The notes: generated from the letters alone by a model not told the origin. A stretch of 64,000 nucleotides of DNA from Eledone cirrhosa (GCA_964016885.1 OZ024749.1:16368001-16432000), one strand, 5' to 3'; shown: positions 7,224-61,845, counted from the first letter of the stretch. A program made the numbers and translations.

Positions 7224-8235
7224 TATTTAGAAACACACAGATACATGCGGACACACACATATATACATGAATGCGTCAGCACCCAACTGTGAGTTAAGGG
7301 TGCCAACTTCACCGATGTTGCTCAATGAATGACTGGGATAGACCAATTCAGTTGAACTAGACTGAACCAGTATCAGAGTTAAAAATACATTATGAAGAGA
7401 GAAGAAATAATTTAGATATAATTAGTAATAAAATGTATCATACCTAAACTGCTCCTAAATTCCTCGACTACGTAGTTTCGTGGCATAAACAAAAACAATA
7501 TATCATAAAGATATAGAGTCCTTGCGAGGTCTGCCGACTTATCAAGAGGATACCTCATTTTACTAGTCTCAAGAACGCGTCTACACGACGTGAGAAAGAA
7601 TCCCAAAAGGCGGAGGGGGAGACAGTCACGCGATATAACGGTCGAGAAACAGAGCTAAGCCTCTTATAACCCCGAAGAAAATACCACGGAGGCGGAGGGG
7701 GTATTTATATCGAGGCCGCAGAAGAGGGGGTGAAGAAGGCGAGAAGTATGAGTAATGGAAGCTTTCCAGCTGTCCCCAGACTTCAAAGATTGCTCGACCA
7801 GAGGGAGTTATTAACAATATATTTAGAAACACACAGATACATGCGGACACAGCTGGAAAGCTTCCATTACTCATACTTCTCGCCTTCTTCATCCCTCTTC
7901 TGCGGCCTCGATATAAATACCCCCTCCGCCTCCGTGGTATTTTCTTCGGGGTTATAAGAGGCTTAGCTCTGTTTCTCGACCGTTATATCGCGTGACTGTC
8001 TCCCCCTCCGCCTTTTGGGATTCTTTCTCACGTCGTGTAGACGCGTTCTGGAGACTAGTAAAATGAGGTATCCTCTTGATAAGTCGGCAGACCTCGCAAG
8101 TACTCTATATCTTTATGATATATTGTTTTTGTTTATGCCACGAAACTACGTAGTCGAGGAATTTAGGAGCAGTTTAGGTATGATACATTTTATTACTAAT
8201 TATATCTAAATTATTTCTTCTCTCTTCATAATGTA
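7224..8235 (-). mobile_element. Non-coding hammerhead-bearing foldback element (PLE-dependent/retrozyme-like), ~595-nt monomer
   Basis: Inverted arms 7387-7773 and 7849-8235. Sequence at 7225 recurs at 7821 (596-bp period). Flanked by (TA)n. Second copy at 60821-61845. Confidence 0.8.
8071..8160 (+). ncRNA. Type I hammerhead ribozyme motif, U3-A8 core variant
   Basis: TCCTC-TTGATAA-GTCGGCA...TGCCAC-GAAA-CTACGTAG-TC|GAGGA. Stem I is TCCTC/GAGGA, stem III is palindromic, cleavage triplet is GUC. Mirror copy on - strand at ~7461-7550. Confidence 0.7.
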
Positions 8236-10180
8236 TATATAAATGTATATATATATTATATATATATACATATATATATATAGTTATATATATAGACATA
8301 TATAGTTATATATATATTCATATATATATATATATATAGTTATATGTATATGTGTATGTGCATATATATATATATGTATATATATGCGTGCGTGTGTGCA
8401 TATAGGTGTGTATATAGGTATGTATACGCACGTGTCCTGTATTTAGTATATATCGATTTACTGCGTATAGATCTAAGTATATGTTAATCAGTACAATATG
8501 AACGTGTATATATATATATATATATATACATACACACACATATATACACACATACACACACATATATATATACACACACACACACATATATATACACTCA
8601 CACACATATATACACACACACACATACACACACACACACATACACAAACACACATATATAGATATATATATATATATATACACATACATACACAGATACC
8701 TACATACGTACATACATAAATACATACATAAGAATGTATATTTAGTCTAGCTGTGAATTTGTTATATAATTCTTCTTGCTTGTCCGTGAGTATATACACA
8801 CACACACACACACACACACATACACACACATACACACACACACACACATAAAGAGAGAGAGAGAGGGGGTATAAACCAATACATGGTTGAGTGCAGAGAC
8901 GACGCAATATATTAATGTTGTATTAACAGGGTTTTAGTTTCAATGCTATACTAGAATTCTATCTCTCTCTCTCTCTCTCTCTCTATATATATATATATAT
9001 ATATATATATATATATATACAGTGTGTAGATAGATTGGGTATATATATATATATATATATATATATATATATATACAGTGTGTAGATAGATTGTGTATAT
9101 ATATATATATATATATATATATATATATATATATACAGTGTGTATATATATATATATATATATATATATATACAGTGTGTAGATAGATTGTGTATATATA
9201 TATATATATATATATATATATATATATATAAACACCTTTATATATATATATATATATATATATATATATATATATATAAACACCTTTATATATATATATA
9301 TATATATACTACAGAATATATCAATAGATTTTTAGCCAACATTGTATATATAGACTGATGTAAACACCTTCTCTGCATATATATATATATATATATATAT
9401 ATATATATATATATATATATATGCAGATATATAGATATATATGTGCAGATATATATATATATATATGTTTGTATAAATGTACCTTATATATATATATTGA
9501 GATTTTTAGCCAACATTGTATGTATACACAAATGTAACCACTGTCTGTAAAAAAAAAATATATGTGTATATATATATATATATATATATATATATGAAAA
9601 TATGCGTATATATATATATATATATATGTATATAAAAATACATATGTATATATATATTTATATGTACCATATATATATATATATTTATATGTACCATATA
9701 TATATATTTATATGTACCATATATATATATATATTTATATGTACCATATATATATATATATTTATATGTACCATATATATATATATATTTATATGTACCA
9801 TATATATATATTTATATGTACCATATATATATATATTTATATGTACCATATATATATATTTATATGTACCATATATATATATATATATATATATATATAT
9901 ATATATATATATGTGTGTGTGTGTATATAAAAATACATATGTATATATATATATTTATATGTATCATATATATATATTGAGATTTTTAGCCAACATTGTA
10001 TATATTCACAAATGTAACCACTATGTCTGTAAAAAATAAAATATATATAGAAACGATCGTTAAATAATGAACTTTTTTTGTTTAATATAAGGAACTGTTT
10101 CATTGTTTTATTCATTATTTTTTTAATATTTTATATATATATATATATATATATATATATATATATATATATATATATAT

Positions 10181-10358
10181 GTAGAGGTTATATTTAACTT
10201 GTTGGGACACAACAAGCAAAATATTTTTATAACTGATATAAAGCACTCAACAAATTATTGGTGTAAATATACAATATATTCTCTGGTGGCCCTTGAAATA
10301 TGTATAATGAAATAAATATGGTTTTATAAATATAGTTTCCATTTCTTAATATATTGTA
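10181..10358. mobile_element. PLE 3'-terminal (pLTR) fragment with internal inversion
   Basis: Matches the terminus of the GIY-YIG element at 57436-60142. The two halves are in opposite orientation. Left end abuts (TA)n. Confidence 0.75.
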
Positions 10359-10360
10359 TA

Positions 10361-11188
10361 TGAGGCATATGGACCTTAAAGCGATGAAATGCCTGGGACG
10401 GTTGGAGGGTCACTGATGAAGGACTTACCTTTTCATATGCCCCACCATTTGCAACGTGCAGCCATTATTATCATATTTACACATAATTTTTCTTCTGCTG
10501 CCACTCGTCTGTTCGTTACCTTTTACCCTTTCTAGCAGTCTCTCTCTCTGTTAGCCTCCTCCTCAACTTTCACTCACTCATTCTCTGTCACTACCTCTCC
10601 TCCTCCTCTTTCTTCCTCCTCCTTCAAGTTTGACCTGTGTGTAATTCTTTTCTCGCGCGGTCTTGACCAAGCTGGTATGGAAATTTTTTTCTCTCTCTCT
10701 CTTTCGTCTGCGACTTCACAAAACTTATGTTTACCGAATTCGTAGACCAGACCCCTTTATCTTCTTCTTCTTCTTCTTCTTCTTCTTCTTCTTCTTCTTC
10801 TTCTTCTTCTTCTTCTTCTTCTTCTTCTTCTTCTTCTTCTTCTCTCTCCCCCCCCCCGTTAGACTTGTGCGAAATTCTTTCCTTGCTCACATTTCAACCA
10901 GGTTTGATGGTCTTTTGTCTCTTGTTCACGATTTCACCGAGTTTATATTCATAGAGATCTGGGACTTGTCTATTTCTTCTCACTTTCCGTTGCTTAAACC
11001 TTTTTGTTTGTTACCCTGGCGTCCCCTTTCTTTACGTGTCCCAACGACTTTTTTTAGCCGTTGTTCGCACCAACCTGAGGCATATGGCCCTTAAAGCGAT
11101 GAAATGCCTGGGACGGTTGGAGGGTCACTGATGAAGGACTTACCTTTTCATATGCCCCACCATTTGCAACGTGCAGCCATTATTATCA
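10361..11188 (+). mobile_element. Non-coding element with 113-bp direct terminal repeats (partial tandem, 715-bp period)
   Basis: 10361-10473 is nearly identical to 11076-11188. Pyrimidine-rich interior with (TTC)n. Ends in (TA)n. Related to 63345-64000. Confidence 0.75.
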
Positions 11189-11494
11189 TATATATATATA
11201 TATATATATATATATGCATACACATGTATACATATATGCATACACAGAGAGAGAGAAAGAGAGAGAGGGGGGAGTCAGAGCTAGATAGATAGATAGATAG
11301 ATAGATAGATAGATAGATAGATAGATAGATAGATAGATAGATACTGATTACTATAGTGATATATCTATAGATAAATATAGATATATCACTCTGTGTATGG
11401 ACTTATAAACACTTTGTATATTGTGTATCTTCGTGGCAGGGACTGGGGGTTAAAGTGGGTGAGGTTTAATCATTACATCCTATGTTGGGATTTC

Positions 11495-59946: not shown

Positions 59947-60012
59947 TATTTTGTCTGATGAAGGCATACCATATTTTTAATATGATATCCCTGAAATATA
60001 TATAATGAAATA
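59947..60012 (+). ncRNA. Type I hammerhead ribozyme motif
   Basis: TATTTTGT-CTGATGA-AGGCATACCATATT-ttt-AATATGATATCCCT-GAAA-TATATA-TA|ATGAAATA. Mirror at ~57477-57542 (-). Confidence 0.8.
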
Positions 60013-60415
60013 AATATGATTTTATAAATATAGTTTCCATTTATTTAATATCGTAAATATACTCCAAATACTTGTTGAGTGCTTTTATATCAGTTATAAA
60101 TATTTACTCGTTGTAACCCAACAATTTAAATAAAACTTTGCATATATATATATGTATATATTGTACATAATATATATTTATATATATATATTGTACATAA
60201 TATATATTTATATATATATATATTGTACATAATATATATATATATATATATATATATATATATATATATATATATATATATATATATATATATATATATA
60301 ATATATATATATATATATAATATATATATATATATATATATATATATATTGTACATAATATTGTACATAATATATATTTATATATATATATATATAATAT
60401 ATATATATATATATA

Positions 60416-60541
60416 ATATTAAATAAATGGAAAACTATATTTATAAAACCATATTTATTTCATCATATATATTTCGGGGACATCATATTAACAATATGCT
60501 ATGCCTTCATCAGACAAAATACAATATAAACAGTTTTATAG
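60416..60541 (-). mobile_element. Solo pLTR fragment with hammerhead
   Basis: TTTCGGGGACATCATATT...AATATGCTATGCCTTCATCAG on +. Confidence 0.75.
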
Positions 60542-60820
60542 ATATATATATAATATATATATATATTGTACATAATATATATTTATATATATATATTGTA
60601 CATAATATATATTTATATATATTATATATATATATATATATATATATATATATATATATATATATATATATATATATATATATATATATATATATATATA
60701 TATATATATTGTACATGATATATATATATTTATATGATATATATATATATATATATATATATATATATATATATATATATATATTATATATATATATATA
60801 TTCTACATAATATATATTTA

Positions 60821-61845
60821 CATTATGAAGAGAGAAGAAACATTTAGATATAATTAGTAATAAAATGTATCATACCTAAACTGCTCCTAAATTCCTCGAC
60901 TACGTAGTTTCGTGGCATAAACAAAAACAATATATCATAAAGATATAGAGTCCTTGCGAGGTCTGCCGACTTATCAAGAGGATACCTCATTTTACTAGTC
61001 TCAAGAACGCGTCTACACGACGTGGGAAAGAATCCCAAAAGGCGGAGGGGGAGATAGTCACGCGATATAACGGTCGAGAAACAGGGCTAAGCCTCTTATA
61101 ACCCCAGTTCAACTGAATTGGTCTGTCCCAGTCATTCATTGAGCAACATCGGTGAAGTTGGCACACTTAACTCACAGTTGGGTGCGGATGCATTCATGTA
61201 TATATGTGTGTGTCCGCATGTATCTGTGTGTTTCTAAATATATTGTTAATAACTCCCTCTGGTCGAGCAATCTTTGAAGTGTGGGGACAGCTGGAAAGCT
61301 TCTATTACTCATACTTCTCGCCTTCTTCACCACCTCTTCTACGGCCTCGATATAAATACCCCCTCCGCCTCCGTGGTATTTTCTTCGGGGTTATAAGAGG
61401 CTTAGCCCTGTTTCTCGACCGTTATATCGCGTGACTATCTCCCCCTCCGCCTTTTGGGATTCTTTCTCACGTCGTGTAGACGCGTTCTTGAGACTAGTAA
61501 AATGAGGTATCCTCTTGATAAGTCGGCAGACCTCGCAAGGACTCTATATCTTTATGATATATTGTTTTTGTTTATGCCACGAAACTACGTAGTCGAGGAA
61601 TTTAGGAGCAGTTTAGGTATGATACATTTTATTACTAATTATATCTAAATGTTTCTTCTCTCTTCATAATGTATTTTTAACTCTGATACTGGTTCAGTCT
61701 AGTTCAACTGAATTGGTCTGTCCCAGTCATTCATTGAGCAACATCGGTGAAGTTGGCACCCTTAACTCACAGTTGGGTGCGGATTTATTCATGTATATAT
61801 GTGTGTGTCCGCATGTATCTGTGTGTTTCTAAATATATTGTTAAT
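60821..61845 (+). mobile_element. Second copy of the ~595-nt hammerhead monomer element
   Basis: 61106 recurs at 61701 (595-bp period). Inverted arm 60821-61105. Hammerhead at 61510-61599. Confidence 0.85.

What the first reader, a model, noticed from the sequence alone, without database searches (positions are those of the whole stretch)
7224..61845. One asymmetric foldback architecture shared by ~15 insertions in (TA)n tracts
Seen: insertions at 7224, 10181, 16517, 24078, 25880, 26985, 27853, 29035, 30570, 32853, 36000, 38601, 41509, 46728, 47565, 55211, 57436 and 60821 mostly read arm'-spacer-arm plus a 40-170 nt tail on one side only. At 10181, 16517 and 46728 the arms barely overlap but the same inversion and end points occur. 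They come from at least ten families with no visible sequence similarity. Two carry PLE ORFs; the rest are non-coding. Known: Penelope-like elements form inverted 5'-truncated pLTRs with a short tail and carry hammerheads. Inference: a large guild of non-autonomous RNAs uses a (TA)n-directed PLE RT/GIY-YIG machinery, with two cDNA priming events at two fixed template positions.
Basis: partly seen in the sequence, partly recalled or inferred. Interest (0 to 1): 0.85.

Follow-up and report, generated by a model that had tools for sequence, protein, structure and literature searches.

The report
Penelope two-start foldback insertions, many families
Fifteen of the eighteen mirror-image insertions are real footprints of Penelope-type jumping genes in TA repeats, mostly cut-off ends of protein-coding elements plus four protein-free families (one carrying a tRNA-like piece), and their strict "one long end, one short end" layout likely records both ends of a DNA break copying RNA from two fixed start points.

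Summary
15 of 18 sites are independent head-to-head insertions in (TA)n. One arm ends at a family-fixed point E1, the other at E2, 24–172 nt upstream. This is the known Penelope-like element (PLE) "inverted 5'-truncated copy plus tail", and it is genome-wide (38 candidates in 600 kb).

Three sites fail: 30570 is a symmetric inverted-repeat element; 32853 and 36000 are passengers in one young composite repeat.

The "non-autonomous guild" is overstated. Ten sites (5 families) are truncated ends of ORF-bearing PLEs of two endonuclease types. Five sites (4 families) are non-coding: tandem monomers of 595, ~430 and 259 nt (the last with a tRNA-like segment), and one non-tandem family.

127 of 130 assignable two-arm insertions pair one E1 with one E2. 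Either arm can be the longer, which argues against a simple self-copy foldback and fits the two RT start sites shown in vitro (PMC11167929).

This scan already reported the retrozyme arrays, two-site ends and tail hairpin elsewhere in this genome; my look-ups did not return the tRNA-bearing family. This window's own junctions were not confirmed in independent reads.

The parts
7220..8242 (.). Family A two-arm insertion: E1 arm 7220-7851 (minus), E2 arm from 7849 (plus); 3-nt junction overlap; non-coding 595-nt tandem monomer family
60819..61846 (.). Family A: E2 arm 60819-61105 (minus), E1 arm 61106-61846 (plus, 1.25 monomers); U3-A8 hammerhead-like motif near 61514-61600
10180..10361 (.). Family B (Hydra-type PLE 3' end): short E1 arm and E2 arm that barely overlap
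16517..16887 (.). Family B, older copy: E2 arm (minus) plus E1 arm (plus)
24078..25853 (.). Family B: long E2 arm 24078-25257 (minus, 3'UTR) and E1 arm 25258-25853; hammerhead core 25666-25706; 10 of 11 relatives continue into the endonuclease ORF
38601..38790 (.). Family B short two-arm insertion
46728..47012 (.). Family B, non-overlapping E1 and E2 arms
57436..60142 (.). Family B: long E2 arm (about 57436-59910, minus) carrying the C-terminal PLE ORF, short E1 arm 59911-60142
58964..59926 (-). 5'-truncated Hydra-type PLE ORF (CxCx5C linker, GIY-YIG-like endonuclease region), 320 aa; no Pfam hit
25880..26083 (.). Family C two-arm insertion; non-coding, hammerhead-like core; no PLE ORF in 20 of 20 long-upstream loci
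26985..27698 (.). Family D two-arm insertion; 3' end of a Hydra-type PLE (ORF upstream in L288, L289)
27853..28145 (.). Family E two-arm insertion; 3' end of an ORF-bearing PLE (L055, L069); U3-A8 hammerhead-like motif
29035..29329 (.). Family F two-arm insertion; non-coding ~420-440-nt tandem monomer with canonical type I hammerhead motif (retrozyme-like)
41510..41975 (.). Family T two-arm insertion; non-coding 259-nt tandem monomer containing a tRNA-like segment; no hammerhead found
41645..41715 (-). tRNA-like segment, left arm of T
41807..41877 (+). tRNA-like segment, right arm of T
47565..50000 (.). Family J: long E1 arm (minus) with RT and GIY-YIG, inverted E2 arm about 49660-50000; about 20-nt near-perfect overlap at the junction
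48649..49806 (-). 5'-truncated PLE reverse transcriptase frame (RVT_1 E=0.001, below curated cut-off)
48087..48479 (-). GIY-YIG endonuclease frame with upstream CX2-5CxxC-type motif
55211..55420 (.). Family K two-arm insertion; extreme 3' end of a Hydra-type PLE (ORF upstream in L146, L347, L351)
30570..31219 (.). NOT part of the system: symmetric ~655-bp palindromic inverted-repeat element in TA
31409..37004 (+). NOT independent insertions: young composite repeat (left limit approximate) ending CTAG|T that carries the 32853 and 36000 foldbacks as fixed passengers

Best explanation
Fifteen sites are two-armed insertions in (TA)n whose arms end at two family-fixed points, and they are likely made by Penelope-like RT/GIY-YIG proteins that would cut both strands of a TA tract and prime reverse transcription from both DNA ends, one at the distal start site E1 and one at the proximal site E2. 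The stretch between E2 and E1 is the one-sided tail. Each cDNA stops at a variable point, and the two are likely joined head-to-head, often through a few bases of microhomology. Templates are likely the 3' ends of autonomous PLE RNAs (families B, D, E, J, K) or non-coding RNAs that borrow the enzyme (A, F, T as multimers or circles; C as a read-through RNA). Shown: ends, pairing rule, ORF linkage, tandem monomers. Inferred: cleavage, priming, joining, trans-mobilisation and which enzyme moves which RNA.
For: 472 of 486 TA-abutting 3' ends in ten families fall at E1 or E2 (440 of 454 without 32 copies of one likely passenger). 127 of 130 assignable head-to-head pairs are E1+E2. Family A by hand: 17 of 19 two-arm loci are E1+E2, and the E2 arm reaches further in 10 of 17. 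In non-tandem families the E2 arm holds sequence absent from the E1 arm (57436, 24078, 10181, 46728, L055), while the tail is absent from the E2 arm, so neither arm can be a copy of the other. Family A junctions are at different positions; 8 of 15 clean ones have >=2 nt overlap versus 15% for random joins. Arms of one insertion share minor variants more than independent draws would (A 5 vs 0.1, T 20 vs 5.5, F 35 vs 13.1, K 7 vs 3.0, C 6 vs 1.5). PLE ORFs are co-linear with B, D, E, J, K ends. In vitro, a PLE protein cuts and extends both strands and starts at two sites that bound the tail (PMC11167929).
Against: No biochemical or RNA evidence here. PMC11167929 saw no difference in start site between top and bottom strand, so it does not itself predict a one-each rule. 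Exceptions exist: 3 of 130 pairs are E1+E1 or E2+E2, 7 more have an end elsewhere, and L096 is E2+E2 with one end not in TA. Many insertions have a single arm. Loci from the family searches were selected with E1-containing queries, so E1 counts are partly by construction. For F the E1 and E2 windows are adjacent and discriminate weakly. Shared variants could come from gene conversion between arms. No sequence-matched autonomous partner was found for A, F, T or C.
Confidence: 0.8

Rival explanations
1. One cDNA is made and then folds back or self-primes to copy itself; the tail arises from endonuclease resolution of the intermediate (ideas in PMC3846280 and PMC8557442).
For: Junction palindromes and microhomology exist (about 20 nt at 47565). 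Arms share minor variants. Short K, C and F copies have arms of similar reach.
Against: In many non-tandem insertions each arm holds sequence the other lacks (57436, 24078, 10181, 46728; L055, L065, L087), which a self-copy cannot give.
Confidence: 0.1
2. The arms are terminal inverted repeats of TA-targeting DNA transposons or MITEs.
For: True for 30570 (symmetric ends) and for the mariner-like element at 29394-30276. TA is a common DNA-transposon target (established knowledge).
Against: In the nine valid families arm lengths and junctions vary between copies, ends are asymmetric at fixed offsets, five families run into RT/GIY-YIG-type ORFs, and eight carry hammerhead-like motifs.
Confidence: 0.04
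3. The foldbacks are sequencing or assembly chimeras.
For: No contig bridging a junction of this window was shown.
Against: Arms differ by up to 6% at window sites. Ends recur at the same two points across more than 100 loci on many contigs. Contigs of public runs show the same E2 and E1 ends followed by (TA)n and the head-to-tail monomer joint.
Confidence: 0.02
4. All non-coding families are just truncated 3' ends of autonomous PLEs that were locally amplified into tandems, so none is truly mobilised in trans.
For: K and D looked non-coding until longer copies showed ORFs. C has no monomer repeat, and only 20 long-upstream loci were checked. The 2026 preprint discusses local tandem amplification from pLTRs.
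Against: A, F and T copies run past E1 into the start of the same monomer, at dispersed loci with fresh E1/E2 ends. A copies are about 99% identical. No ORF above 105 aa in tandem-read monomers.
Confidence: 0.08

Closest known systems
PLE inverted pLTR with one-sided 'tail' (Craig et al. 2021, PMC8557442; Arkhipova et al. 2013, PMC3846280)
   Same: 5'-truncated copy with an adjacent inverted truncated copy, tail on one end only, microsatellite targeting, hammerheads near the 3' end.
   Different: Published tails are 30-40 bp; here 24-172 nt and fixed per family. The one-E1-one-E2 rule and the freedom of either arm to be the long one are not quantified in the passages read.
Poseidon_Ac in vitro mechanism (Frangieh et al. 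2024, PMC11167929)
   Same: Two internal RT start sites bounding the tail; both strands cut and extended; AT-rich target; predicted dimer.
   Different: Different clade. They report no strand difference in start site, whereas genomic pairs here are almost strictly one of each.
Hydra clade of EN+ PLEs (PMC8557442 section 11)
   Same: Families B, D, K: CxCx5C linker, C-terminal endonuclease, hammerhead motif, (TA)n insertion; full-length homologs P0001/P0002 show RWK, and P0002 also DKT.
   Different: No tree was built. Families J and E have a CX2-5CxxC-type linker instead (Neptune/Nematis-like by that paper's description).
Animal non-LTR retrozymes (Cervera and de la Pena 2020, PMC7229834; Li, Clavereau and Pollet 2026, bioRxiv 10.64898/2026.07.22.740005)
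   Same: Families A and F: non-coding tandem monomers with a type I hammerhead motif, proposed PLE-mobilised.
   Different: Here they are shown with the PLE two-arm E1/E2 footprint. A (595 nt) is longer than the 170-400 nt of the 2020 paper but within the 51-972 bp of the 2026 preprint. T has no hammerhead and carries a tRNA-like segment.
Small-RNA-derived non-autonomous LTR elements Helenus, Ajax, Cassandra (Kojima 2024, PMC10886601)
   Same: A small-RNA-gene-like sequence inside a non-autonomous retroelement that is not a classical SINE.
   Different: Those are LTR-type; family T has PLE-type ends and a tandem, circularly permuted layout.

Membership tests
EN+ Penelope-like elements (families B, D, E, J, K) | RT plus GIY-YIG endonuclease ORF linked to the terminal repeat | tested here: met
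   J: RVT_1 (weak) and GIY-YIG. B: 10 of 11 loci. D: L288, L289. E: L055, L069. K: 3 of 12 loci. B, D, K by tblastn to PLE-type proteins; Pfam gave no hit for those.
EN+ Penelope-like elements (families B, D, E, J, K) | 5' truncation with inverted copy and one-sided tail | tested here: met
EN+ Penelope-like elements (families B, D, E, J, K) | Hammerhead motif in the terminal repeat | tested here: met
   Core motif with flanking stems by pattern scan in B, D, E, J, K. Rfam did not detect them. Activity untested.
Hydra clade (B, D, K) | CxCx5C linker, RWK and DKT motifs, (TA)n target | tested here: met
   CxCx5C in window ORF 58964-59926 and L289; RWK in both homologs, DKT in P0002 only (35-36% identity to the window ORF); K linked by tblastn only.
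Hydra clade (B, D, K) | Placement in the clade on an RT tree | not tested
   No reference set was fetched.
Non-LTR retrozymes (A, F) | Non-coding tandem monomers, each with a type I hammerhead | tested here: met
   A 595 nt with U3-A8 core; F ~420-440 nt with canonical core.
Non-LTR retrozymes (A, F) | Self-cleavage and circular RNA accumulation | not testable with these tools
   Needs RNA data or assay.
Non-LTR retrozymes (T) | Type I hammerhead in each monomer | tested here: not met
   No C3-G8 or U3-A8 core found. T works like a retrozyme in layout but is not filed as one.
tRNA-derived SINE (T) | tRNA-related head with A and B boxes | tested here: met
   Rfam tRNA 41-47 bits, ARAGORN hit, B box.
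tRNA-derived SINE (T) | Insertions begin at the tRNA head and end in a LINE-type tail with TSD | tested here: not met
   Copies are permuted multimers with E1/E2 ends and two arms; a T5 run follows the tRNA part.
TIR DNA transposon / MITE | Symmetric fixed termini | tested here: not met
   Not met for the nine families; met only for 30570.
Helitron (composite 31409-37004) | 3' CTAG before T, 5' TC, subterminal hairpin (features recalled) | tested here: inconclusive
   CTAG|T in 27 of 29 loci and one head-to-tail join; no strong hairpin; 5' end not fixed.

The most novel reading that the evidence does not exclude
Penelope integration is an asymmetric double-priming reaction: one RNP loads the two ends of a cut TA tract onto two different start sites of the same RNA. 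Any RNA carrying those two signals is mobilised, including a ribozyme-less, tRNA-bearing 259-nt multimer (family T) that would be a SINE-like parasite of Penelope elements.
Probability: 0.45. Interest if true: 0.75.

Novelty: new member of a known kind. Interest (0 to 1): 0.5.

Why it matters
How PLEs, the closest retroelement relatives of telomerase, make their inverted, one-tailed insertions is stated as open in PMC8557442. The data here give testable rules: one E1 and one E2 end per insertion, either arm longer, arms from the same template lineage, across two endonuclease types. The same footprint on non-coding tandem families is genomic support for the proposed PLE mobilisation of retrozymes, and family T extends it to a tRNA-bearing RNA. 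At about 60 detectable insertions per Mb (25 in 400 kb) the process has probably shaped much of this 3-Gb genome. The architecture itself is known, and this scan has described most of it before.

Tried and rejected
Rfam found no hammerheads at gathering score or among the 150 listed matches at E<=1 in seven loci; motif calls rest on pattern scans. Pfam gave no hit for ORF 58964-59926 or its homologs. The sequencing-run search listed no RNA holder: no evidence on expression. Contigs laid on the 47565 junction did not bridge it by 31 nt on both sides, and no listed piece bridged the 60821 junction: no verdict; these runs may be other individuals or species. Shares of family A words in runs of other coded organisms were laid for only two runs (X4, X8), so no claim on distribution is made. 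The first impression that K and D were short non-autonomous elements was rejected after longer copies showed ORFs. An apparent shared junction for 24078 was a misreading: the 'spacer' is the long E2 arm. The B arm-variant test had one usable insertion and is uninformative. The closing strand of the tail hairpin was not found in T, only a repeated 9-mer after each end. The origin of the 32853 foldback could not be traced, because the top hits examined were the composite repeat. Paper searches listed no title describing a tRNA-bearing PLE-mobilised element or a quantified pairing rule; the library lacks most subscription papers and Repbase reports, and no supplements were read, so Hydra consensus files of PMC8557442 may already hold some of these families.
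Full report
OBSERVATION. The window lies on contig C9 of a 3.0-Gb animal genome and is dense in (TA)n tracts. A masked self-comparison finds local inverted arms at 15 of the 18 coordinates. At 10181, 16517 and 46728 the arms barely overlap, but mapping to family B shows one arm ending at the family's 3' end (E1) and an opposed arm ending 83-97 nt upstream (E2). 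Arm identity at five sites is 94.1-99.7%. Only 3.1% of random unmasked positions lie within 10 nt of a (TA)>=4 tract on a given side.

GENOME-WIDE. I fetched 60 stretches of 10 kb: 20 beside the window and 40 at evenly spaced positions. The same scan gave 38 asymmetric candidates outside the window (13 and 25; about two look spurious). With 12 from the window they form 29 clusters; 6 symmetric cases were also seen. Tail length is constant within clusters.

THE PAIRING RULE. For ten families I classified all 3' ends in the loci held at that point, after dropping 25 duplicate or self loci. 472 of 486 TA-abutting ends fall within 12-14 nt of E1 or E2 (440 of 454 without 32 copies at one offset, most likely a passenger in the composite repeat below). 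145 ends did not abut TA, 108 of them in the three tandem families. Of 137 head-to-head pairs, 127 were E1+E2, 1 E1+E1, 2 E2+E2, and 7 had an end elsewhere. Search-derived loci are biased towards E1, so the informative point is that the partner arm is almost always E2. By hand in family A, 17 of 19 two-arm loci are E1+E2, one E2+E2, one E1+other; the E2 arm reaches further in 10 of the 17 (one E1 end taken from the hit list).

SITES THAT FAIL. 30570 is a symmetric ~655-bp palindrome with the same terminus at both ends; 0 of 22 other loci carry its 'tail', which is a separate small foldback at 31228-31384. 32853 and 36000 occur together in a young composite repeat of at least 5.6 kb, with 658 and 808 first-look candidates. 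The 36000 junction is identical in 29 of 29 other loci and similarity runs on leftwards. The unit ends CTAG|T in 27 of 29 loci, about a third of them not in a TA run; 'Helitron-like' is a recalled label and inconclusive. The 36000 arms are this terminus and an inverted copy of it. 32853 may be a captured PLE foldback.

AUTONOMY BY FAMILY. J (47565) carries RT and GIY-YIG frames. B carries a 320-aa C-terminal ORF at 57436; the long arm of 24078 leads into a 72-86% identical ORF in 10 of 11 other loci. D runs into an endonuclease ORF in L288 and L289. E does so in L055, with L069 co-linear. K, which usually appears as ~140 nt, does so in 3 of 12 long loci. So 10 of the 15 valid sites are truncated ends of ORF-bearing PLEs. 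The B ORF has a CxCx5C linker, and its two full-length homologs show RWK (one also DKT), diagnostics of the Hydra clade, which inserts in (TA)n (PMC8557442 section 11). J and E have a CX2-5CxxC-type linker. No tree was built.

NON-CODING FAMILIES. A is a 595-nt monomer, about 99% identical among top hits, 1238 candidates, with arms of up to nearly four monomers. F is a ~420-440-nt tandem monomer with a canonical type I hammerhead motif, 1341 candidates. T is a 259-nt tandem monomer, 1575 candidates, with a tRNA-like segment (Rfam 41-47 bits; ARAGORN calls Ser-CGA) set in a predicted ~20-bp stem and followed by a T5 run; 18 of 19 pairs are E1+E2. C extends about 600 nt upstream, then into varied host DNA, with no PLE ORF in 20 of 20 loci. 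Hammerhead-like cores occur in 8 of 9 families (U3-A8 type in A, E, K), not in T; Rfam missed them, and activity is untested.

SHARED SIGNAL. Tails of unrelated families often begin with an RCTC...GAGY stem a few bases after E2. It was in 10 of 24 families against 0.9 expected from shuffles (pattern chosen on these data), and in 6 of 17 held-out clusters against 0.9 expected, with 1 of 17 on the arm side. Earlier scan notes describe this as a twin hairpin with a second copy after E1. In A an RCTC half follows E2 and a full stem follows E1; in T only a repeated 9-mer follows each end.

MECHANISM. Published: PLE insertions have an adjacent inverted truncated copy and a 30-40-bp tail on one end (PMC8557442, passages and sections 11, 15; PMC3846280, passages). 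A purified PLE protein cuts and extends both strands of AT-rich DNA and starts reverse transcription at two internal sites bounding the tail (PMC11167929, parts 1-2 of 4). Shown here: in non-tandem families the E2 arm can contain sequence the E1 arm lacks (57436, 24078, 10181, 46728, L055), and the tail is only in the E1 arm, so neither arm is a copy of the other. Family A junctions lie at different places; of 20, 15 are clean (8 with >=2 nt overlap, against 15% for random joins) and 5 have 3-18 extra bases. The two arms of an insertion share minor variants 2- to 50-fold more than independent draws in five families, consistent with one template lineage, though conversion between arms is not excluded. 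Inferred: both ends of a cut TA tract prime cDNA, one at E1 and one at E2, and the truncated cDNAs are joined head-to-head. For A, F, T the template is a multimer or circle borrowed in trans.

ARTEFACT CHECK. Public contigs show family A ends at E2 (9 contigs) and E1 (2 and 1 contigs) followed by (TA)n, and a head-to-tail monomer joint. Divergent arms and recurrent ends argue against chimeras. The window's own junctions were not bridged, so they remain unconfirmed by independent reads.

WHAT IS KNOWN AND NEW. Non-autonomous PLE derivatives are known or proposed: MRC1 (PMC8557442, passage), animal retrozymes (PMC7229834, passages; bioRxiv 10.64898/2026.07.22.740005, parts 1-3 of 5). An Octopus repeat annotation lists active Penelope families without describing this layout in the passages seen (PMC13282606); the host group here is my guess and untested. 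Six paper searches showed no title with a quantified pairing rule or a tRNA-bearing PLE-mobilised element; the nearest analogue is LTR-type (PMC10886601, search listing and passages). Earlier notes of this scan already report the retrozyme arrays, two-site ends and hairpin in this genome; look-ups by sequence and words did not return family T.

VERDICT. Interest 0.5.

Noticed in passing
window 29394-30276: Decayed mariner-like element with symmetric terminal inverted repeats flush with TA on both sides and transposase remnants; a useful control for the asymmetric class.
   Followed up: partly
window 31228-31384: Separate small foldback with a ~90-nt tail ending at (TA)n; an 82% relative in L169.
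   Followed up: partly
window 31409-37004: Young composite repeat with hundreds of 97-99% identical copies, carrying a 159-aa repetitive basic ORF (33331-33810), SINE-like inserts and two foldbacks; ends CTAG|T.
   Followed up: partly
window 44347-44568: Older relative of family A (about 78%) with the same E2 and E1 ends in foldback.
   Followed up: no
window 49660-49679: The inversion junction of the J element sits on a ~20-nt near-perfect match between the ORF and the antisense terminal repeat.
   Followed up: partly
window 22863-23065, 22368-22506, 60416-60544: Further B and K copies with a single long arm ending at E1 or at E2.
   Followed up: partly
   Followed up: no
window 52224-53447 (-) and 51288-51656 (+): LINE-type remnants: zf-RVT domain frame and a weak restriction-like nuclease frame.
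   Followed up: no
window 10361-11200: Insertion with a 125-bp direct repeat (10361-10485 / 11076-11200) and a (TTC)n tract; a relative forms an asymmetric foldback with a 35-nt tail in L034.
   Followed up: no
L356, L360-L365 upstream of family C: Several family C copies on different contigs share long upstream host or satellite sequence, suggesting transduction or segmental duplication.
   Followed up: no
window 60821-61846 (family A): Near-identical words occur in public runs of many coded organisms; two runs laid (X4, X8) held one contig each at 95-99% identity.
   Followed up: partly
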